In this document: in pieces, positions 9,940 through 60,684 of the stretch
How positions within the stretch are numbered: position 1 is the first letter of the stretch
Layout: the number at the start of each line of letters is the position of its first letter
Source of the DNA: Escherichia phage vB_EcoM-UFV09
Sequence record: MZ291552.2
Strand: one strand, 5' to 3'
DNA: 64,000 bases
The notes under the pieces: model-generated
Databases searched by the model: none
What the model was told of the DNA's origin: nothing
Seen by the model: the letters and a program-made list of their open reading frames with translations, nothing else
Translations under genes and position numbers: made by a program

Positions 9940-11358
9940 TTATGGATAGGTATAGATGATACCAGTTTCTAAAGCTGTTTTGTGAATGATGTATCCATTA
10001 CGCGATTCTTGGACATCAACTTCTGGATAGTCTTTCATCATCTTCTGAAGCGTATAACGATGCAAGTAGTACTTACTATCTGGGTCGTCAGTTTTCCAAT
10101 CTTTACCTTCTTCAGTCATTTTTTGGATTTCATCCATAACCCACCAACCGCACCAGATATAAGCTGAAGTACGGTGCGGAAGAGGATGAACATAAGGCAA
10201 TTCACCTTCTGGTTCTGGAGCAACTTTATCAGTCACTTGAACTTGACCTGTTGTTTTAACTGTTTTGCTATCATAATCAGTTGCTGTAACGACAGCAGTA
10301 ACTTCAATAGTTTGACTTCCAACAGATGAGGTATCGACAGTATATACGTTAGTTGACCCTTCTACAGGAGAAGAATCTTTCTTCCACGAGTAAGTAATTT
10401 GTGCTTCTTCTGGAGCATCCGTAACATTAGCAGTAAATGTAGCCGAAGCATCTTGCTGAACGTTAATAGAAGGAGGAGTCAATGTAACCTGTGGATTCAT
10501 TGTCTTCTTATTAACTGTCAATGATACTTCATTAGAAGTAACTTCCTTTTCATTGTAATTTTCTGCTGTTACTTGGGCTACGCATTTAATTCTTTTTACT
10601 CCACTTGTAGTTGGAGTATAGCTAAATGTAGAGTTAGTTTCTCCACCAACTTGTGAATCATCTACATACCATTTATATGTAGCAGACGCTCCATCAGGTT
10701 GAGAAGCTAAGGCAGCAGTAAATTGAACTGGGGTTCCAATTACTCCAGCTGAAGGACTAGCAGGAGTTACTGCCAATGTAGTTGTCTGTGTCTTTTTATT
10801 AACAGTCAGTGATACTTCATTCGAAGTAACGGTTTTTTCATCATAATTTGTCGCGGTTACTTGAGCTACACACTTGATTTTTTTAACTCCGCTTGCGGCA
10901 GGAGTGTAATTGAATGTAGCAGAAGTCGCTTCGTCTACAGGAGAACTGTCAACGTACCATTGATACGTAGCAGATGCACCTGATGGCTGCGAAGCTAAAG
11001 CAGCGGTAAATTTAACAGCTGTTCCAATTACTCCTGCTGGAGGACTATTGGGAGTTACGGCTAAGGTAGTCGTCTGAGTTTTGTTTTTGACTGTGATAGT
11101 TGTAGTAGCTTCTGCTGTTTCAGCTTCAGATTCTGGAACTGTATTTGTTGCAACAACTTTAATAGTCTTTTAACCAGCAGGACCTTTTAATACATAATCA
11201 AAAGTTGCTTCAGACCCATCTTGTGGAGCATTATCTACACTCCAAGCATAAGTAATAGTTCCACCTCCAGTTTCACCACTGGGTGCAGCAGTAAACTGCT
11301 TGGTTTCATCAATAACTCCTGACGGTGCTTTAGGAGTTATATCAACTGTAAAAGCCAT
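9940..11358 (-). pseudogene. hoc: Highly immunogenic outer capsid protein Hoc, interrupted by one in-frame TAA (plus 11170-11172); about 472 codons if read through
   Basis: N-terminal piece MAFTVDITPKAPSGVIDETKQF...LKGPAG then TAA; the same frame continues KTIKVVATN... with no further stop to 9940 (hand translation); Ig-like repeats and C-terminal capsid-binding region recognised. Confidence 0.8.
10500..11080 (-). repeat. Tandem duplicated Ig-like domain coding units inside hoc (two units of about 290 bp)
   Basis: The two DNA units align with frequent substitutions; encoded peptides LAVTPNSPPAGVIGTAVKFTAALASQPSGASATYQWYVD and LAVTPASPSAGVIGTPVQFTAALASQPDGASATYKWYVD. Confidence 0.7.
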
Positions 11359-50711: not shown

Positions 50712-53700
50712 ATGGCCGAGATTAAAAGAAAGTTCAGAGCAGAAGACGGTCTGGACGCAGGTGGTGATAAAATAATCAACGTAGCTTTAGCTGATCGTAC
50801 CGTAGGAACTGACGGTGTTAACGTTGATTACTTAATTCAAGAAAACACAGTTCAACAATATGATCCAACTCGTGGATATTTAAAAGATTTTGTAATCATT
50901 TATGATAACCGCTTTTGGGCTGCTATAAATGATATTCCAAAACCAGCAGGAGCTTTTAATAGCGTACGATGGAGAGCGTTACGTACTGATGCAAACTGGA
51001 CAACTGTTTCGTCAGGACCTTATCAATTAAAATCAGGCGAATCGATTTCAGTTAACACTGCAGCGGGTAATGACATTACATTTACTTTGCCATCTTCTCC
51101 AATTGATGGTGATACTATCGTTCTCCAAGATATTGGAGGAAAACCTGGAGTTAACCAGGTTTTAATTACAGCTCCGGTACAAAGCATTGTAAACTTTAGA
51201 GGTCAACAAGTACGCTCAGTACTAATGACTCATCCAAAATCACAGATAGTTTTAATTTTTAGTAATCGTCTGTGGCAAATGTATGTTGCTGATTATAGCA
51301 GAGAAGCGGCAGTTGTAACGCCAGCGAGTCTTTATCAAGCGCAATCAAACGATTTTATCGTGCGTAGATTTACTTCTGCTTCAGCAATTAATATTAAACT
51401 TCCTAGATTTGCTAATCATGGGGATATTATTAATTTTGTTGATTTAGATAAATTAAATCCGTTATATCATACTATCGTTACTACATACGATGAAACGACT
51501 TCAGTACAAGAAGTTGGAACTCATTCCATTGAAGGCCGTACATCTATTGATGGTTTCTTAATGTTTGATGATAATGAGAAATTGTGGAGATTATTTGACG
51601 GTGATAGTAAAGCGCGTTTACGCATTATAACAACTAATTCAAACATTCGTCCAAATGAAGAAGTCATGGTATTTGGCGCGAATAATGGAACAACTCAAAC
51701 GATTGAACTTCAGCTTCCAACTGATATTTCTATCGGTGATACTGTTAAGATTTCCATGAATTACATGAGAAAAGGACAAACAGTTAAAATCAAAGCTGCC
51801 GGTGAAGATAAAATTGCTTCTTCAGTTCAATTGTTGCAATTTCCAAAACGTTCAGAATACCCACCTGAAACTAAATGGGTGACTGTTCAAGAATTAGTTT
51901 TTAACGGCGAAACTAATTATGTTCCAGTTTTACAGCTTGCTTATATCGAAGATTCCGATGGAAAATATTGGGTTGTACAGCAAAACGTTCCAACAGTTGA
52001 AAGAGTAGACTCTTTAAATAATTCTACTAGAGCAAGATTAGGTGTAATTGCATTAGCTACACAGGCTCAAGCTAATGCAGATTTAGAAAATTCTCCACAA
52101 AAAGAATTGGCAATTACTCCAGAAACGTTAGCTAATCGTACTGCTACAGAAACTCGTAGAGGTATTGCAAGAATAGCAACAACTGCGCAAGTAAACCAGG
52201 ATACCACATTCTCTTTTGCAGATGACCTTATCATCACTCCTAAAAAGTTGAATGAAAGAACTGCTACAGAAACTCGCAGAGGTGTCGCAGAAATTGCTAC
52301 GCAGCAGGAAACTAATACAGGTACTGATGATACTACAATCATTACTCCTAAAAAGCTTCAAGCTCGCCAAGGTTCTGAATCATTATCTGGTATTGTAACT
52401 TTTGTATCTACTGCAGGAGCTACTCCAGCTTCTAGCCGCGAATTAAATGGTACGAATGTTTATAATAAAAACACTAATAACTTAGTTGTTTCACCTAAAG
52501 CCTTGGATCAGTATAAAGCTACTCCAACACAGCAAGGTGCGGTAATTTTAGCAGTTGAAAGTGAAGTAATTGCTGGACAAAGTCAAGAAGGATGGGCAAA
52601 TGCGGTTGTAACGCCAGAAACGTTACATAAAAAGACATCAACTGATGGAAGAATTGGTTTAATTGAAATTGCTACTCAAAGTGAAGTTAATACAGGAACT
52701 GATTATACTCGTGCAGTCACTCCTAAAACTTTAAATGACCGTAGAGCAACTGAAAGTTTAAGTGGTATAGCTGAAATTGCTACACAAGTTGAATTCGACG
52801 CAGGCGTCGACGATACTCGTATCTCTACACCATTAAAAATTAAAACTAGATTTAATAGTACTGATCGTACTTCAATTGCTACACAAGTTGAATTCGACGC
52901 AGGCGTCGACGATACTCGTATCTCTACACCATTAAAAATTAAAACTAGATTTAATAGTACTGATCGTACTTCTGTTGTTGCTCTATCTGGATTAGTTGAA
53001 TCAGGAACTCTCTGGGACCATTATACCCTTAATATTCTTGAAGCAAATGAGACACAACGTGGTACACTTCGTGTGGCTACACAAGTTGAAGCTGCTGCCG
53101 GAAAATTAGATAATGTTTTAATAACTCCTAAAAAGCTTTTAGGTACTAAATCTACCGAATCGCAAGAAGGTGTTATTAAAGTTGCAACTCAGTCTGAAAC
53201 TGTGGCTGGAACGTCAGTAAACACTGCTGTATCTCCAAAAAATTTAAAATGGATTGTACAGAGTGAACCTACCTGGGCAGCTACTACTGCGATAAGAGGT
53301 TTTGTTAAAACTTCATCTGGTTCAATTACATTTGTCGGTAATGATACAGTCGGTTCTACCCAAGATTTAGAACTGTATGAGAAAAATAGCTATGCAGTAT
53401 CACCATATGAATTAAACCGTGTATTAGCAAATTATTTGCCATTAAAAGCAAAAGCTGCAGATAGTAATTTATTGGATGGTCTAGATTCATCTCAGTTCAT
53501 TCGTAGGGACATTGCGCAGACGGTTAATGGTTCACTAACCTTAACCCAACAAACGAATCTGAGTGCCCCTCTTGTATCATCTAGTACTGCTACGTTTGGT
53601 GGATCAGTTTCAGCAAATAGTACATTAACTATTTCTAATACTGGAACAGCAACTCGATTGATTTTTGAGAAAGGACCTCAAACTGGAACAAACCCAGCCC

Positions 53701-54680
53701 AAACGATGACTGTTAGAGTGTGGGGAAATCAATTTAGTGGGGAATTAGATACAACACGTTCTACCGTATTTGAAGTTAGTGATGAAACATCTAGTCATTT
53801 TTATTCTCAGCGCAATAAAGCCGGAAATATAACATTTAATATCAACGGTACAGTAACACCGATAAATGTTAATGCTTCAGGAACATTGAATGCAAATGGC
53901 GTAGCAACATTTGGTAATTCAGTCACTGCAACTGGTGAAATTATTTCTCGAAGCGCAAATGCTTTCCGTGCTATTAACGGAAATTATGGTTTCATTGTTC
54001 GCAATGATGGATCAGTAACGAATTTTATGCTTACTGCATCGGGTGATCAGACTGGTGGATTTAACGGATTACGTCCTTTGGCTATTAATAATGCATCTGG
54101 TCAAGTAACGATTGGTGAAAGCTTAATCATCGCCAAAGGTGCTACTATAAATTCTGGTGGTTTAACTGTTAATTCGAGAATTCGTTCTCAAGGTACTAAA
54201 ACTTCTGATTTATATACCCGTGCGCCAACATCTGATACTGTAGGATTCTGGTCAATTGATATTAATGATTCAGCTACTTATAACCAGTTCCCCGGTTATT
54301 TTAAAATGGTTGAAAAAACTAATGAAGTGACTGGACTTCCGTACTTAGAACGTGGCGAAGAAGTTAAATCTCCTGGTACACTGACACAGTTTGGTAACAC
54401 ACTTGATTCGCTTTACCAAGATTGGATTACTTATCCAACGACACCAGAAGCGCGTACCACTCGTTGGACCCGCACATGGCAGAAAACCAAAAATTCTTGG
54501 TCAAGTTTTGTTCAGGTATTTGATGGAGGTAACCCTCCTCAACCGTCTGATATCGGTGCTTTACCATCTGATAATGCTACAATGGGGAATCTTACTATTC
54601 GTGATTTCTTACGAATTGGTAATGTTCGCATTATTCCTGACCCAGTGAATAAAACTGTTAAATTTGAATGGGTTGAATAA
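50712..54680 (+). CDS. 34: Long tail fibre proximal subunit
   Basis: 1322 aa (T4 gp34 1289 aa); characteristic repeated ITPK/ATE-RRG-A-IAT motifs; starts the tail fibre operon. Confidence 0.9.
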   Translation: MAEIKRKFRAEDGLDAGGDKIINVALADRTVGTDGVNVDYLIQENTVQQYDPTRGYLKDFVIIYDNRFWAAINDIPKPAGAFNSVRWRALRTDANWTTVSSGPYQLKSGESISVNTAAGNDITFTLPSSPIDGDTIVLQDIGGKPGVNQVLITAPVQSIVNFRGQQVRSVLMTHPKSQIVLIFSNRLWQMYVADYSREAAVVTPASLYQAQSNDFIVRRFTSASAINIKLPRFANHGDIINFVDLDKLNPLYHTIVTTYDETTSVQEVGTHSIEGRTSIDGFLMFDDNEKLWRLFDGDSKARLRIITTNSNIRPNEEVMVFGANNGTTQTIELQLPTDISIGDTVKISMNYMRKGQTVKIKAAGEDKIASSVQLLQFPKRSEYPPETKWVTVQELVFNGETNYVPVLQLAYIEDSDGKYWVVQQNVPTVERVDSLNNSTRARLGVIALATQAQANADLENSPQKELAITPETLANRTATETRRGIARIATTAQVNQDTTFSFADDLIITPKKLNERTATETRRGVAEIATQQETNTGTDDTTIITPKKLQARQGSESLSGIVTFVSTAGATPASSRELNGTNVYNKNTNNLVVSPKALDQYKATPTQQGAVILAVESEVIAGQSQEGWANAVVTPETLHKKTSTDGRIGLIEIATQSEVNTGTDYTRAVTPKTLNDRRATESLSGIAEIATQVEFDAGVDDTRISTPLKIKTRFNSTDRTSIATQVEFDAGVDDTRISTPLKIKTRFNSTDRTSVVALSGLVESGTLWDHYTLNILEANETQRGTLRVATQVEAAAGKLDNVLITPKKLLGTKSTESQEGVIKVATQSETVAGTSVNTAVSPKNLKWIVQSEPTWAATTAIRGFVKTSSGSITFVGNDTVGSTQDLELYEKNSYAVSPYELNRVLANYLPLKAKAADSNLLDGLDSSQFIRRDIAQTVNGSLTLTQQTNLSAPLVSSSTATFGGSVSANSTLTISNTGTATRLIFEKGPQTGTNPAQTMTVRVWGNQFSGELDTTRSTVFEVSDETSSHFYSQRNKAGNITFNINGTVTPINVNASGTLNANGVATFGNSVTATGEIISRSANAFRAINGNYGFIVRNDGSVTNFMLTASGDQTGGFNGLRPLAINNASGQVTIGESLIIAKGATINSGGLTVNSRIRSQGTKTSDLYTRAPTSDTVGFWSIDINDSATYNQFPGYFKMVEKTNEVTGLPYLERGEEVKSPGTLTQFGNTLDSLYQDWITYPTTPEARTTRWTRTWQKTKNSWSSFVQVFDGGNPPQPSDIGALPSDNATMGNLTIRDFLRIGNVRIIPDPVNKTVKFEWVE
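52775..52972 (+). repeat. Perfect 99-bp in-frame tandem duplication inside gene 34 (33 aa duplicated)
   Basis: Two identical 99-nt units; encoded IATQVEFDAGVDDTRISTPLKIKTRFNSTDRTS appears twice in succession. Confidence 0.85.
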
Positions 54681-54688
54681 GAGGTATT

Positions 54689-55804
54689 ATGGAAAAATTT
54701 ATGGCAGAGTTTGGACAAGGATATGTCCAAACGCCATTTTTATCGGAAAGCAATTCAGTAAGATATAAAATAAGCATAGCGGGTTCTTGCCCGCTTTCTA
54801 CAGCAGGATCATACGTTAAATTTCAGGATAATCCTGTAGGAAGTCAAACATTTAGTGCAGGTCTTCATTTAAGAGTTTTTGACCCTTCCACGGGAGCATT
54901 GGTTGATAGTAAGTCATATGTTTTTTCTACTTCAAATGATACAACATCTGCTGCTTTTGTTAGTTTCATGAATTCTTTTTCAAGCAATAGACTTGTTGCC
55001 ATATTAACTAGCGGAAAGGTTAATTTTCCTCCTGAAGTAGTATCTTGGTTAAGAACGGCAGGAACATCTGCTTTTCCATCTGATTCTTTATTGTCAAGAT
55101 TTGATGTATCATATGCTGCCTTTTACACTTCTTCTAAAAGAGCTATCGCACTAGAGCATGTTAAACTGAGTAACAGAAAAAGCACAGATGACTATCAAAC
55201 TATATTAGATGTAGTATTTGACAGTTTAGAAGATGTTGGAGCGACAGGATTTCCTAAAAGAACATATGAAAGCGTTGAGCAATTTATGTCAGCTGTTGGT
55301 GGAACTAATAACGAAATTGCACGTCTACCTACAGCATCTGCAATAAGTAAACTTTCTGACTATAATTTAATTCCTGGAGATGTTCTTTATCTTAAAGCAC
55401 AACTATATGCTGATGCTGATTTACTTGCTCTTGGAACTACAAATATATCTATCCGTTTTTATAATGCGTCGAATGGATATATTTCCTCGACACAAGCTGA
55501 GTTTACCGGACAAGCTGGGTCTTGGGAATTAAAGGAAGATTATGTAGTTGTTCCTGAAAATGCAGTTGGATTTACGATATATGCACAGAGAACTGCTCAA
55601 GCGGGACAAGGCGGTATGCGAAATTTAAGCTTTTCTGAAGTATCAAGAAACGGCGGTATTTCAAAACCTGCTGAATTTGGCGTCAATGGTATTCGTGTTA
55701 ATTATATCTGTGAATCTGCTTCACCTCCGGATATAATGGTACTTCCTACGCAAGCATCGTCTAAAACTGGTAAAGTGTTTGGACAGGAATTTAGAGAAGT
55801 TTAA
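54689..55804 (+). CDS. 35: Long tail fibre hinge connector
   Basis: 371 aa (T4 gp35 372 aa); synteny. Confidence 0.85.
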   Translation: MEKFMAEFGQGYVQTPFLSESNSVRYKISIAGSCPLSTAGSYVKFQDNPVGSQTFSAGLHLRVFDPSTGALVDSKSYVFSTSNDTTSAAFVSFMNSFSSNRLVAILTSGKVNFPPEVVSWLRTAGTSAFPSDSLLSRFDVSYAAFYTSSKRAIALEHVKLSNRKSTDDYQTILDVVFDSLEDVGATGFPKRTYESVEQFMSAVGGTNNEIARLPTASAISKLSDYNLIPGDVLYLKAQLYADADLLALGTTNISIRFYNASNGYISSTQAEFTGQAGSWELKEDYVVVPENAVGFTIYAQRTAQAGQGGMRNLSFSEVSRNGGISKPAEFGVNGIRVNYICESASPPDIMVLPTQASSKTGKVFGQEFREV

Positions 55805-56531: not shown

Positions 56532-59500
56532 ATGGCTACTTTAAAACAAATACAATTTAAAAGAAGCAAAACGGCAGGTCAACGTCCAGCTGCTTCAGTA
56601 TTAGCCGAAGGTGAATTGGCTATAAACTTAAAAGACCGTGTACTTTTTACTAAAGATGACCAGGGAAATATTATTGATTTAGGTTTTGCTAAAGGCGGTA
56701 GTATTGACGGGAATGTTATTCATAAAGGCAATTATAACCAAACTGGAGATTATACTTTAAACGGTACATTCACCCAGACTGGTAATTTTAATTTAACCGG
56801 TATTGCTCGAGTAACTCGTGATATTATTGCTGCTGGGCAGATTATGACTGAAGGCGGAGAACTTATTACAAAAAGTTCAGGTACATCACATGTTCGTTTT
56901 CATGATTCAGCTGACCGTGAACGCGGTATTATTTTTTCTCCTGCTAATGATGGATTAACTACACAAGTAATTAACATCAGAGTTCAAGATTACAAAGCCG
57001 GTTCAGAAAATACTTTTTCTTTTAGCGGTAGTGGTCTTTTCACATCGCCGGAAGTTTCTGCATGGAAATCTATGTCAACCCCCCAGATTTTGACTAACAA
57101 AGTCATTACTAATAATAAATCTACGAGTGATTATGACATTTATTCGATGGCAGACAATGTTCCATTGTCTGAAAGCACTACTGCTATTAATCATCTTCGT
57201 GTTATGCGTAATGCAGTTGGTTCTGGTATTTTTCATGAAGTTAAAGATAATGATGGAATAACATGGTATAGTGGAGATGGATTAGATGCTTATCTGTGGT
57301 CATTTACCTGGAGCGGCGGAATTAAATCAAGTCACTCAATTTCCATCGGTTTAACACCCGGACCTAAGGATTACTCAATATTAGGACCGTCTAGTATCGC
57401 TTTAGGAGATAATGATACTGGATTTAAATGGCATCAAGACGGATATTATTTCAGTGTTAACAATGGCACAAAAACGTTTTTATTTAGTCCCAGCGAAACA
57501 ACTAGCCTAAGAAAATTTGTAGCTGGATATTCTACTAACGGAACCGATTTAACTACTCCTCCAACTGAAAATTATGCTCTTGCTACTGTAGTGACATACC
57601 ACGATAATAACGCGTTTGAAGATGGTCAGACTCTTTTAGGATATTATCAAGGCGGTAATTATCATCACTATTTCCGCGGTAAAGGTACTACAAACATTAA
57701 TACTCACGGTGGTTTGTTAGTTACTCCTGGTAATATTGACGTTATTGGTGGTTCTGTTAATATCGATGGTAGAAATAATGCTTCTACACTGATGTTTAGA
57801 GGTAACACAACTGGTAGTAGTTCAGTTGATAATATGACAATTTCCGTTTGGGGCAATACGTTTACTAATCCTAGTGTAGGTAATCGTAAAAACGTCATGG
57901 AAATTTCTGATGCAACTAGTTGGATGAGCTATATTCAAAGACTTACAACAGGTGAAGTAGAAATGAACGTTAACGGTTCATTTGAATCATCTGGTGTTAC
58001 TGCTGGAAATAGAGGAGTTCACACAACAGGCGAAATTTCATCTGGAGCAGTGAATGCGCTTCGTATTTGGAACGCAGATTATGGAGCCATTTTTAGACGT
58101 TCAGAAGGTAGTCTTCATATTATTCCGACTGCTTATGGTGAAGGCAAAAATGGTGATATCGGTCCACTTCGTCCATTTAGTATTGCTTTGGATACTGGTA
58201 AGGTTGTTATTCCAGATTTAGAATCAAGTTATAACACGTTTGCTGCAAATGGCTACATTAAATTTGCTGGTCATGGCGCGGGTGCAGGTGGTTATGATAT
58301 TCAGTATTCACAAGCTGCTCCTATTTTCCAAGAAATCGATGATGCTGCTGTAAGCAAATATTATCCTATTGTTAAACAGAAGTTTTTAAATGGTAAAGCT
58401 GTCTGGTCTTTGGGTACTGAAATTAATTCTGGTACATTTGTTTTACATCATTTGAAAGAAGATGGTTCACAAGGCCATACATCAAGATTTAATGCTGATG
58501 GTACAGTCAATTTCCCCGATAACGTTCAAGTCGGTGGTGGTGAAGCTACTATTGCTCGTAATGGTAATATTTTCTCAGATATTTGGAAATCGTTTACTTC
58601 TGCGGGAGAAACCACAAATATTCGCGATGCAATAGCTACTCGTGTTGCCAAAGAAGGCGATACGATGACTGGCAAATTAATCGTTAAAAGAGGCTCTGAC
58701 GCTATTAACATTGCTGCCGATGAAAATGATTCTTGCTATTTACTTGGAACATCGGGTGGAGCGAATTCATGGTACATTGGTAAAGGAGGAGCAGATGACA
58801 CTGCTTCATTTTATAATTTCAAAACTACCGCAGGAATTACTCTTAATAGTGTTGGTGATATTGATTTTAACGTTAAAAATCAAGCTACTGCAGCTTCATT
58901 AAATTTTTATCGTTTATATTTAAATGGAAGACAGTGGACAGCTACACAAGGACATGGATATAATAATCAATGGCAAACAGAAGCCCCATTCTTCGTTGAC
59001 TTTGGCGAATCTGTTCCGAAAGATAGTTATATGCCTATAATTAAAGGAAGAAGCCAAATCATTAACGAAGGATATGCCACAAAGGCAGATTTTGGTATTA
59101 TTCGATTAGGCGGAAATGCTACTTGGGGAAATGCAGTAATTCGTGTTGGTTCTGCAGAAAGCGGAGATAGCAGTCATCCTAATGCAATATTTGTGTTTCA
59201 GGCTAATGGCGATTTTAAAGCTCCGGCTGGCCTTCGTGCTGGTGTTAACTTGGGCGTCGGCACAATTCCAGTATGGGGCGGAGCATCTATCGCCATCGGT
59301 GATGATGATACCGGTTTAGTTCATGGCGGCGATGGTCGAATTAATATGTATGCTAACGCGCAGCATATTGCATCATGGGGCACGATGTATCAATCTCATC
59401 CAGGCCTTTGGGATTCATATGGAGCTTTTTGGACAGAAGTTGGCAAAGCAATTATTTCTCATGGCCATTTAGTTCAGGCGAATGACAGTTATTCCACATA

Positions 59501-59858
59501 TGTACGCGATGTTTATGTCCGCTCTGATATTCGTGTCAAAAAGGACCTAGTTAAATTTGAAAATGCTTCTGAGAAGCTTTCAAAAATTAACGGTTACACT
59601 TATATGCAGAAGCGAGGTCTAGATGAAGAAGGTAATCAAAAATGGGAACCTAACGCAGGTTTAATTGCTCAAGAAGTTCAAGCTATTTTACCTGAATTAG
59701 TTGAAGGCGATCAGGATGGTGAAGCACTACTTCGTTTGAACTACAACGGTGTAATCGGTTTAAATACAGCTGCAATCAATGAGCATACTGCAGAAATTGC
59801 AGAACTTAAGTCAGAGATTGAAGAGCTTAAAAAATTAGTCAAATCATTGTTAAAATAA
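56532..59858 (+). CDS. 37: Long tail fibre distal subunit with C-terminal chaperone-like domain
   Basis: 1108 aa; synteny; C-terminal [26 protein letters not shown]...[14 protein letters not shown] followed by a coiled-coil tail. Confidence 0.85.
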
Positions 59859-59863
59859 AATGA

Positions 59864-59877
59864 GGGGCTTCGGCCCC
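59864..59877 (+). terminator. Stem-loop with UUCG tetraloop directly after the gene 37 stop
   Basis: ggggc-ttcg-gcccc; weak U tract, so may be an attenuator or stability element. Confidence 0.4.
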
Positions 59878-59889
59878 TTGGAGGTTTAT

Positions 59890-60684
59890 ATGGCAGTTGA
59901 AGGACCGTGGGTAGGATGGTCTGCGAGGGTACAAACTGGAGACCCTTGGATGGGTGGTGCCGCGCAGAGATTGAGAATGGGAATTCCGTTTTGGATGAGT
60001 AATATGATAGGTCGATCTGTTGAAGTAATTCACACACTTGGAGCGGACCATAACTTCAATGGTCAATGGTTCCGAGATAGATGTTTTGAGGCAGGTAGTG
60101 CACCTATAGTGTTTAATATTACCGGAAATTTGGTATCATATTCTAGAGACGTTCCTTTATTCTTTATGTATGGAGATACACCTAATGAATATGTTCAGTT
60201 GAATATTGGTGGCGGCGTCCATATGTGGGGTAGAGGTGGACAAGGTGGATGGACTCATTCCGGCGGAGATGGTAATGGTCAACAAGGTGGTCATTGTATT
60301 CAAAATGACATCGGTGGACGATTAAGAATTAATAACGGTGGAGTAATTTGCGGTGGAGGTGGAGGTGGAGGTGGTATCGCTTATCGTCCTCGCTCTGGCG
60401 CAAAATGGCAAGATATTGGTGGTGGCGGTGGAAGACCATTTGGCCCAGGAGGTGGCGGCGGTTACTCGGGTGGCGCAGCTTCATACGACGGTCCAGGAGG
60501 TGGTTATCAATACGGAAATGCTCACTCCGGCCAGGGTGGCGATGCCGGAGGAAATGGACAAAATGCCTGGTCGGATGGCGGTAAAGTTCTAAAAGTTGGA
60601 GCTGGTGGCGCTGCCGGATATGCTGTTATAGGATCCGCTCCAACATGGCAAAATGTTGGAGTAATATATGGTCCAAGGGTATAA
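59890..60684 (+). CDS. 38: T2-type receptor-recognising adhesin with glycine-rich motifs
   Basis: 264 aa from MAVEGPW with GGAGG RBS; poly-Gly tracts separated by short variable segments; conserved C-terminus [22 protein letters not shown]. Confidence 0.8.
60352..60375 (+). repeat. (GGTGGA)x4 microsatellite encoding a poly-Gly tract in gene 38
   Basis: ggtggaggtggaggtggaggtggt read directly. Confidence 0.8.

What the first reader, a model, noticed from the sequence alone, without database searches (positions are those of the whole stretch)
59890..60684. T2-type gp38 adhesin with glycine-rich motifs and a slippage-prone microsatellite
Gene 38 encodes a 264-aa glycine-rich protein with poly-Gly tracts separated by short variable segments and a conserved C-terminal block. 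This is the architecture of the receptor-binding adhesin found at the fibre tip in T2-like phages, as opposed to the T4-type assembly chaperone. The variable segments between glycine runs are the likely host-range determinants, and a (GGTGGA)x4 repeat at 60352-60375 could expand or contract by slippage.
Basis: partly seen in the sequence, partly recalled or inferred. Interest (0 to 1): 0.45.

Follow-up and report, generated by a model that had tools for sequence, protein, structure and literature searches.

The report
Known gp38 tail-fibre tip adhesin
This gene encodes the well-studied gp38 receptor-binding cap of a T-even phage long tail fibre, almost certainly an OmpA binder, and its short glycine-coding DNA repeat shows no sign of changing length, so the finding is correct but ordinary.

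Summary
The ORF at 59890-60684 (+, 264 aa, 27% Gly) is real and is an adhesin-type gp38. It matches Pfam GP38 (1.7e-68) and Gp38_N (1.4e-19), and the crystal structures of PP01 gp38 (1.3e-72) and S16 gp38 (9e-50). It has no similarity to the T4 gp38 chaperone (E 0.85). The gene is 100% identical to Escherichia phages vB_EcoM-UFV05/06/10/11.

Its hypervariable region (aa 163-238) is 95% identical to RB32 and 92-93% identical to AV119 and FL08. All three are OmpA-dependent by experiment, so OmpA is the likely receptor.

The repeat is (GGTGGA)x3 plus GGTGGT, 3.8 copies. It encodes G155-G162, which aligns with the eight-glycine PGII helix 3 at the centre of the S16 polyglycine sandwich. The tract keeps the same codon number in every relative checked: 25 phage records, 18 DNA sequences of the IAY subgroup and about 42 protein cluster representatives. 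Its codons drift synonymously. Slippage-driven variation is therefore not supported.

The gene varies in two other ways. A cassette at nt ~462-684 is phage-FT-like inside a wV7/RB32-like backbone. One substitution in a receptor loop, H168R, was seen only in this gene and the UFV phages.

Verdict: adhesin reading supported, microsatellite reading rejected, already known, low interest.

The parts
59890..60684 (+). Gene 38: gp38 long-tail-fibre tip adhesin, 264 aa plus stop
   Evidence: Pfam PF05268 GP38 1.7e-68 and PF21721 Gp38_N 1.4e-19. PDB 9V85 1.3e-72 and 6F45_D 9e-50. 100% nt identity to UFV05/06/10/11. AF2 model pLDDT 86.7, with gp38 structures as the only significant PDB fold matches.
59880..59884 (+). 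Shine-Dalgarno GGAGG, 5 nt before the ATG at 59890
   Evidence: Direct reading.
59861..59880 (+). Intercistronic hairpin with a C(UUCG)G tetraloop between the gene 37 stop and the gene 38 ribosome-binding site
   Evidence: Eight-bp stem in the MFE and centroid structures. The equivalent site is annotated as a putative terminator in phage WFL6982. Its function is inferred only.
59890..60009 (+). N-terminal attachment domain (aa 1-40) that docks on the gp37 trimer. W7, W20 and W35 match the three conserved tryptophans of S16 gp38.
   Evidence: Pfam Gp38_N covers 1-40. W7, W20 and W35 are nearly invariant in 62 homologues and align with S16. The role of the tryptophans is from PMC6851490.
60229..60249 (+). 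Glycine-rich motif 1 (G114 R115 G116 G117 Q118 G119 G120)
   Evidence: G114, R115, G116, G117 and G119 are invariant columns.
60250..60282 (+). Hypervariable segment 1 (about aa 121-131), corresponding to PP01 loop A
   Evidence: Low identity and gaps in the conservation profile. Mapped to PP01 W119-I124 through the alignment and the loop definitions.
60352..60375 (+). (GGTGGA)x3 + GGTGGT, encoding G155-G162: glycine-rich motif 3, the central polyglycine-II helix
   Evidence: TRF. Aligns with the G8 run of S16 and of PP01. S16 helix 3 is 151-GGGGGGGG-158, and GRM3 is the central helix with a saturated hydrogen-bond network. Length is invariant in relatives.
60376..60417 (+). Hypervariable segment 2 (aa 163-176, [14 protein letters not shown]), corresponding to PP01 loop B. 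Carries R166, R168 (unique here) and K172.
   Evidence: Conservation profile, clade alignment, loop mapping. R165 in AV119 numbering, R166 here, is named as the key OmpA contact in PMC12032242.
60418..60444 (+). Glycine-rich motif 4 (GGGGGRPFG, aa 177-185)
   Evidence: G180, G181, P183 and G185 invariant. G177-179, R182 and F184 nearly invariant.
60463..60603 (+). Hypervariable segments 3-4 with short interspersed glycine motifs (aa 192-238), corresponding to PP01 loops C, D and E. Carries Q207, N222 and S228.
60604..60681 (+). Conserved C-terminal block (aa 239-264, [26 protein letters not shown])
   Evidence: High identity in 98 homologues. Nearly invariant columns G240-G261.
60351..60573 (+). 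Recombinant cassette (gene nt ~462-684, aa 154-228). It is FT-like, while the flanks are wV7/RB32-like.
   Evidence: 4 differences from phage FT against 26 from wV7 inside the cassette. Outside it, 3 and 1 differences from wV7 against 20 and 14 from FT. FT is the best non-UFV match for this patch, at 98.0%.
56532..59858 (+). Gene 37, distal long-tail-fibre subunit: the partner on which gp38 sits. It has a C-terminal intramolecular chaperone domain.
   Evidence: Pfam Peptidase_S74 at aa 998-1057, 1.2e-12. The last 194 aa match S16 gp37 in the gp37-gp38 crystal complex 6F45_A, 5.2e-45.

Best explanation
Gene 38 encodes the monomeric receptor-binding cap of the long tail fibre of a Tequatrovirus. 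The window is identical, over 40000-64000, to Escherichia phages vB_EcoM-UFV05/06/10/11 apart from a 99-bp duplication in gene 34. The N-terminal 40 residues should dock, through three conserved tryptophans, onto the tip of the gp37 trimer left after its C-terminal chaperone domain is removed. The rest should fold into a beta-helix from which glycine-rich motifs extend as polyglycine-II helices packed into a sandwich. The hypervariable segments between the motifs form the distal loops that touch the host outer-membrane receptor. That receptor is most likely OmpA, possibly with help from LPS. The (GGTGGA)3.8 repeat is simply the coding sequence of the eight-glycine central helix. Its length is fixed by the structure, and it does not act as a variable microsatellite. 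Diversification of this gene comes from homologous exchange of the segment from glycine motif 3 to hypervariable segment 4, and from point substitutions in the loops, here H168R. Shown here: family membership, fold prediction, synteny, length invariance, the mosaic pattern, and near-identity of the loops to experimentally typed adhesins. Inferred: the docking, OmpA binding by this particular protein, and intolerance of length changes.
For: Family and fold. Not the T4 type. Synteny 34-35-36-37-38-t, as in T2, KIT03 and the UFV phages. The gp37 tip and chaperone domain match the S16 complex. Receptor: aa 163-238 are 95% identical to RB32, 93% to AV119 and 92% to FL08, against 29-42% to adhesins for Tsx, OmpC or FadL/OmpF and to the other OmpA type. 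AV119 and FL08 depend on OmpA (PMC12032242). The RB32 adhesin targets OmpA and LPS (PMC3157838). The residues that study names as OmpA contacts (R165, D217, R262 in AV119 numbering) are present here as R166, D218 and R263. Repeat: the G8 aligns with S16 helix 3. Deletions of GRM2, GRM3 and GRM4 gave no viable T6 recombinants. Within the IAY subgroup there are always 8 residues between the I-C/A anchor and IAY, in about 42 cluster representatives and 18 DNA sequences. There are 16 synonymous versions of the tract. The exact tract occurs in 8 named phages. None of 25 phage records shows a length difference around the repeat. Mosaic.
Against: No experiment exists on this protein. R168 is unique among the relatives examined and lies in loop B next to the proposed OmpA-contact arginine. 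A single loop substitution is known to switch a gp38 from OmpF to OmpW (bioRxiv 10.64898/2026.04.02.716166). The OmpA contact residues come from in silico models. Length invariance among deposited genomes cannot exclude rare within-population slippage variants that selection removes. In gp38 subtypes outside the IAY subgroup, the 3' boundary of the glycine run is ambiguous (runs of 5-10 G), so strict invariance is demonstrated only within that subgroup.
Confidence: 0.85

Rival explanations
1. The adhesin binds a receptor other than OmpA, such as Tsx, OmpC, OmpF, FadL, OmpW or LPS alone. This would follow if the UFV-specific H168R change, or the combination of K172 with the FT-like cassette, has shifted specificity.
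For: R168 was found in no other sequence among 98 cluster representatives or the fetched phage loci. It lies in hypervariable segment 2 / loop B. There is precedent for a single-residue receptor switch in a gp38 loop. RB32 also uses LPS.
Against: All other loop residues occur in OmpA-typed relatives. The hypervariable region is 92-95% identical to three OmpA-dependent adhesins and at most 42% identical to every other class tested. The proposed contact residues are conserved.
Confidence: 0.12
2. The (GGTGGA) repeat is a slippage-prone microsatellite. It would expand or contract in steps of two glycines to vary the adhesin and so the host range.
For: A perfect period-6 stretch of 23 nt exists. 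It is more regular than random codon choice: P 0.004 for period 6 and 0.02 for any short period. Several relatives carry other periodic versions, such as (GGCGGTGGT)x2.7.
Against: There are only 3.8 copies. No copy-number variant was seen in 25 phage records. None was seen in the 8 named phages that share the exact tract while their flanks differ. None was seen among the IAY-subgroup sequences, which use 9 of the 16 distinct synonymous versions of the tract. The tract encodes the invariant central PGII helix, and GRM3 deletion was not viable in T6. Given its own codons, the periodicity has P = 0.07. The only indel inside the IAY subgroup is one Gly codon at aa 107-109, elsewhere in the gene.
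Confidence: 0.03
3. The gene encodes a T4-type gp38, an assembly chaperone for gp37 that is absent from the virion.
For: Same genomic slot between genes 37 and t. Several GenBank records of close relatives still carry the label 'distal long tail fiber assembly catalyst'.
Against: No sequence similarity to T4 gp38 (best E 0.85). Full-length matches to adhesin Pfam families and crystal structures. gp37 here carries its own intramolecular chaperone domain.
Confidence: 0.01

Closest known systems
gp38 of Escherichia phages vB_EcoM-UFV05/06/10/11 (GenBank OP572230, OP555980-82)
   Same: 100% identical at nucleotide and protein level. The surrounding 24 kb is also 100% identical.
   Different: No difference in gene 38. 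Those records label it 'tail protein and peptidase', which is uninformative. The window has an extra 99 bp in gene 34.
RB32/RB33 gp38 (OmpA + LPS adhesin; Trojet et al. 2011, PMC3157838)
   Same: The specificity domain, aa 104-264, is 98% identical (157/161), with the same G8 tract at DNA level.
   Different: The N-terminal attachment domain is a different allele (MAVVGVPGWIGSS..., two residues longer). There are four loop-region differences: H168R, N207Q, A222N, H228S (RB32 residue first). The cassette at nt 462-684 differs at 26 sites.
AV119 / FL08 'type 1' OmpA-binding gp38 (Lutz et al. 2025, PMC12032242)
   Same: 96% and 94% overall identity. They share Q207, N222 and S228 with the window. 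The proposed contact residues are conserved. OmpA dependence was shown experimentally for these phages.
   Different: They are 263 aa, with one Gly codon fewer at aa 107-109. They have V167/H168/N172 and V200/A201 where the window has P167/R168/K172 and D200/G201. The G8 codons are different.
PP01 gp38 (PDB 9V85, OmpC) and S16 gp38 (PDB 6F45, OmpC)
   Same: Same domain plan and predicted fold: Foldseek E 3e-26 and 4e-22, TM-score by target 0.86 and 0.83. Identical eight-glycine helix 3. Residues 37-150 are nearly identical to PP01.
   Different: The hypervariable loops are unrelated (36-37% identity over aa 163-238), consistent with a different receptor.
T2 gp38
   Same: Same family, same gene order, same arrangement of glycine motifs and hypervariable segments.
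   Different: Only 41% identity overall and 39% in the hypervariable region. T2 uses FadL/OmpF (own knowledge).
T4 gp38 (assembly chaperone)
   Same: Only the gene name and the position between genes 37 and t.
   Different: Unrelated sequence (E 0.85) and 183 aa. It is not a virion component (annotation note in NC_000866).

Membership tests
gp38 tail-fibre adhesin (Pfam PF05268 GP38 + PF21721 Gp38_N) | Sequence match above the curated thresholds over the full length of both models | tested here: met
   231.2 bits against a cut-off of 25, model positions 1-218/218. 70.2 bits against 25, positions 1-40/40.
gp38 tail-fibre adhesin (Pfam PF05268 GP38 + PF21721 Gp38_N) | N-terminal attachment domain with three conserved tryptophans that insert into gp37 pockets | tested here: met
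   W7, W20 and W35 are present, align with S16 and are nearly invariant in 62 homologues. Their role is from PMC6851490. Actual docking was not tested.
gp38 tail-fibre adhesin (Pfam PF05268 GP38 + PF21721 Gp38_N) | C-terminal specificity domain of conserved glycine-rich motifs alternating with hypervariable segments, including the G8 motif 3 and GGGGGRPF | tested here: met
   Invariant glycine columns, with variable and gapped segments between them.
gp38 tail-fibre adhesin (Pfam PF05268 GP38 + PF21721 Gp38_N) | Beta-helix plus polyglycine-II sandwich fold | tested here: met
   AF2 model with pLDDT 86.7 and pTM 0.78. The only significant PDB matches are 9V85 and 6F45_D. This is a prediction, not a solved structure.
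gp38 tail-fibre adhesin (Pfam PF05268 GP38 + PF21721 Gp38_N) | Encoded directly downstream of a gene 37 whose product has an S16/T2-type tip and a cleavable C-terminal chaperone domain, and upstream of holin t | tested here: met
gp38 tail-fibre adhesin (Pfam PF05268 GP38 + PF21721 Gp38_N) | Present in the virion at the fibre tip and required for adsorption | not testable with these tools
   Needs virion proteomics or electron microscopy, plus gene 38 mutants.
'Type 1' OmpA-binding gp38 (RB32 / AV119 / FL08 group) | Hypervariable segments of the type-1 allele set | tested here: met
   92-95% identity over aa 163-238 to RB32, AV119 and FL08, against 29% to type-2 FL18 and 37% to M1. Clade alignment.
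'Type 1' OmpA-binding gp38 (RB32 / AV119 / FL08 group) | Proposed OmpA contact residues R165, D217 and R262 (AV119 numbering) | tested here: met
   R166, D218 and R263 are present here. The contacts themselves are in silico predictions in the source paper.
'Type 1' OmpA-binding gp38 (RB32 / AV119 / FL08 group) | Infection depends on OmpA | not testable with these tools
   Needs plating on ompA deletion and complemented strains. No receptor data on the UFV05-11 phages turned up in the literature search.
T4-type gp38 assembly chaperone | Sequence similarity to T4 gp38 | tested here: not met
   BLASTP best E 0.85 over 50 residues at 14% identity.
Simple-sequence contingency locus (slippage-driven length variation) | Copy-number polymorphism of the repeat among close relatives or isolates | tested here: not met
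   0 of 25 phage records differ in length. 8 named phages carry the identical tract. Codon number is constant through 16 synonymous versions within the IAY subgroup.
Simple-sequence contingency locus (slippage-driven length variation) | Within-population length heterogeneity at read level | not testable with these tools
   No reads were available.

The most novel reading that the evidence does not exclude
H168R is a single G-for-A change at gene nt 503, found only in this gene and the UFV phages. It sits in receptor loop B, two residues from the arginine proposed to contact OmpA. Combined with an FT-like loop cassette in a wV7/RB32-like backbone, it might change which OmpA loop variants are recognised, or add a second receptor. 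That would give these phages a host range different from RB32, AV119 and wV7.
Probability: 0.12. Interest if true: 0.3.

Novelty: already known. Interest (0 to 1): 0.12.

Why it matters
In practice it allows a sequence-based receptor call, OmpA, for a phage group whose GenBank annotation of this gene is uninformative. That helps in designing phage cocktails, because resistance would arise through ompA loss. It also corrects a tempting misreading. Glycine-codon repeats in gp38 encode rigid polyglycine-II helices of fixed length and are not contingency repeats. Host-range change in this gene runs through cassette recombination and loop point mutations. None of this is new to specialists.

Tried and rejected
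1. I scanned public collections for copy-number variants with a gapped pattern anchored on the repeat's flanks. Viral contigs gave one locus with the normal 24-nt tract. Metagenome contigs gave nothing. These scans were too sparse to help, so I used span comparison in 25 phage records instead.

2. I tested whether the tract's periodicity across relatives hints at past slippage and homogenisation. Of 16 tract versions, 2 have permutation P below 0.05 and 4 below 0.1, which is only weakly above expectation. I did not pursue this as evidence.

3. A literature search for a KIT03 receptor returned only papers that turned out irrelevant or were not followed up. The UFV papers found concern UFV13, not UFV05-11.

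4. RB33's GenBank record has a truncated gene 38. The cause is a 1-nt deletion at gene nt 346, in glycine motif 1, not in the hexamer repeat. Trojet et al. report RB33 gene 38 as identical to RB32, so this is probably a sequencing error.

5. The alternative start at 59860 (274 aa) was rejected. It has no Shine-Dalgarno, it lies inside the hairpin, and all homologues begin at MAV.

6. The T4-type chaperone reading was rejected.

Full report
**Observation.**
The window carries an ORF at 59890-60684 on the + strand. It is 264 codons long and is preceded by GGAGG at 59880-59884. A mechanically longer ORF starts at 59860, but every homologue begins with MAV at the position of 59890.

The protein is 27% glycine. 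Its glycine runs are G8 (155-162), G5 (177-181), G5 (187-191) and two G3. Tandem Repeats Finder reports a perfect period-6 array at 60352-60374 with 3.8 copies. Read directly, it is GGTGGA three times followed by GGTGGT.

**What the gene is.**
- The protein matches Pfam GP38 end to end (1.7e-68) and Gp38_N (1.4e-19).
- It matches two solved adhesins by sequence. These are the PP01 gp38 receptor-binding domain (9V85, 1.3e-72) and S16 gp38 in complex with gp37 (6F45 chain D, 9e-50).
- An AlphaFold2 model built on 62 homologues has mean pLDDT 86.7. In a Foldseek search of the PDB, its only significant matches are those same two structures, with TM-scores by target of 0.86 and 0.83.
BLASTP against T4 gp38 finds nothing (E 0.85), while T2 gp38 aligns over the full length at 41% identity (1e-33).
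- The neighbours are genes 34, 35, 36 and 37 upstream and holin t downstream, the same order as in T2, KIT03 and the UFV phages.
- Gene 37 ends with a Peptidase_S74 intramolecular chaperone domain. Its last 194 residues match S16 gp37 from the gp37-gp38 crystal complex (5.2e-45).
- W7, W20 and W35 are conserved. They align with the three tryptophans that anchor S16 gp38 on the gp37 trimer.

Membership of the adhesin family is as firm as sequence analysis can make it.

**Identity of the phage.**
Gene 38 is 100% identical to Escherichia phages vB_EcoM-UFV05, 06, 10 and 11. Window 40000-64000 is also 100% identical to them. The protein is 98% identical to wV7 and KIT03, 96% to AV119 and 94% to FL08.

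**Receptor.**
I compared the hypervariable region (aa 163-238) with adhesins whose receptor is known from experiment.

| Phage gp38 | Receptor | Identity over aa 163-238 |
|---|---|---|
| RB32 | OmpA + LPS | 95% |
| AV119 | OmpA (type 1) | 93% |
| FL08 | OmpA (type 1) | 92% |
| T6 | Tsx | 42% |
| T2 | FadL/OmpF | 39% |
| M1 | OmpA | 37% |
| S16 | OmpC | 37% |
| PP01 | OmpC | 36% |
| FL18 | OmpA (type 2) | 29% |

- RB32's adhesin targets OmpA and LPS, and transferring its hypervariable region transfers that specificity (Trojet et al. 2011).
- AV119 and FL08 depend on OmpA and define the broad-host-range 'type 1' OmpA adhesins (Lutz et al. 2025).
- The residues those authors single out (R165, D217, R262 in AV119 numbering) are present here as R166, D218 and R263.

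OmpA is thus the best-supported receptor. It is an inference from close homologues, not a test of this protein.

One caveat applies. R168 is found in no other sequence I examined. It lies in the loop equivalent to PP01 loop B. A single loop substitution has been shown to switch another gp38 from OmpF to OmpW.

**The repeat.**
The 24 nt at 60352-60375 encode G155-G162. This run aligns residue for residue with the eight-glycine run of S16 and of PP01. In S16 it is helix 3 (151-GGGGGGGG-158), and glycine-rich motif 3 is the central polyglycine-II helix, hydrogen-bonded to its neighbours on all sides. G156-G160 are invariant and G161 nearly invariant in 62 diverse homologues.

Evidence on length variation:
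- Every member of the subgroup whose next residues are IAY has exactly eight positions between the I-C/A anchor and IAY. This holds in about 42 protein cluster representatives and 18 DNA sequences.
- The codons drift freely among GGT, GGA and GGC. Sixteen distinct nucleotide versions occur among the loci. The window's version is shared exactly by UFV05, KIT03, wV7, CE1, RB32, RB33, FT and fHoEco02, which differ elsewhere in the gene.
- All 25 phage records matching 60290-60440 span exactly the same number of bases as the query.
- Trojet et al. could not recover viable T6 phages with motif 2, 3 or 4 deleted.
- The periodicity is not remarkable once the tract's own codon composition is considered (P = 0.07).
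- The only length polymorphism inside the IAY subgroup is one glycine codon at aa 107-109, in AV119, FL08 and fHoEco02. That is elsewhere in the gene.

I conclude that the repeat is a by-product of coding eight glycines with the two commonest glycine codons. Changes in its length are not a source of variation that survives. Read-level data could still show rare transient slippage.

**How the gene actually varies.**
Nucleotide differences from relatives are sharply clustered.

| Gene segment | Differences from wV7 | Differences from FT |
|---|---|---|
| nt 145-444 | 3 | 20 |
| nt 462-684 | 26 | 4 |
| nt 705-795 | 1 | 14 |

- Phage FT is the best non-UFV match for the middle patch, at 98.0%.
- The exchanged block runs from just before the G8 tract to the small GG motif at aa 230-231. 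It covers glycine motif 3 through hypervariable segment 4, which is the set of receptor loops B to E.
- This fits the published picture of crossovers in or beside conserved glycine motifs. It also fits a recent engineering result in which only the part of gene 38 from hypervariable segment 2 onwards was exchanged.
- The N-terminal attachment domain also occurs as two alleles that assort independently of the C-terminal domain. RB32 and FT carry one, and the window, wV7 and AV119 carry the other.
- Which lineage is the recombinant cannot be decided from these data.

**Comparison and novelty.**
Everything here is known. The family was described in the 1980s, and its modular design was analysed in 2011. 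Crystal structures date from 2018 and 2026, and receptor typing of near-identical adhesins from 2011 and 2025. The exact sequence is already in GenBank.

What this analysis adds:
- a receptor call for the UFV phage group, whose records name the gene 'tail protein and peptidase';
- a clean example of a loop-cassette mosaic;
- a negative result on slippage.

Interest is low.

**Limits.**
- No wet-lab data exist for this protein.
- The OmpA contact residues in the literature are computational.
- Outside the IAY subgroup, the 3' end of the glycine run cannot be separated from the start of hypervariable segment 2, so strict length invariance is shown only within that subgroup.
- The scans of viral and metagenome collections for copy-number variants returned almost nothing.

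Noticed in passing
window 52775-52972 (inside gene 34, ORF 50712-54680): A perfect 99-bp x2 tandem duplication, in frame, adding 33 aa. It makes gp34 1322 aa instead of the 1289 aa seen in UFV05 and T4. It is absent from the four otherwise 100% identical UFV genomes and from the other best-matching records, all of which span 99 bp less. It could be a real variant of the proximal fibre shaft or an assembly artefact.
   Followed up: partly
window 59861-59880: A stable hairpin with a C(UUCG)G tetraloop lies between the gene 37 stop and the gene 38 Shine-Dalgarno, and its 3' arm touches the first G of the Shine-Dalgarno. For the 71-nt context the MFE is -18 kcal/mol and z is -1.9. The same spot is annotated as a putative terminator in phage WFL6982.
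   Followed up: partly
L031 (RB33, KM607001) 315-755: The RB33 GenBank record has gene 38 truncated to 146 aa by a 1-nt deletion at gene nt 346 relative to RB32. Trojet et al. report the two genes as identical. This is probably a sequencing error in the record.
   Followed up: yes
window 60208-60216 (aa 107-109, GGT GGC GGC): This short glycine run, not the flagged hexamer repeat, is the one place where close relatives (AV119, FL08, fHoEco02) differ by one Gly codon.
   Followed up: yes
window 54689-55804 (gene 35): gp35 gives a Pfam hit to ILEI (interleukin-like EMT inducer domain), E 3.4e-7 and 31.1 bits against a cut-off of 27, over aa 58-127.
   Followed up: no
window 10501-11076: A diverged 288-bp x2 tandem repeat, 76% match. 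Not examined.
   Followed up: no
window 59791-59830 (3' end of gene 37): A 21-nt x1.9 repeat encodes the coiled-coil-like [15 protein letters not shown] tail of the gp37 intramolecular chaperone domain.
   Followed up: no
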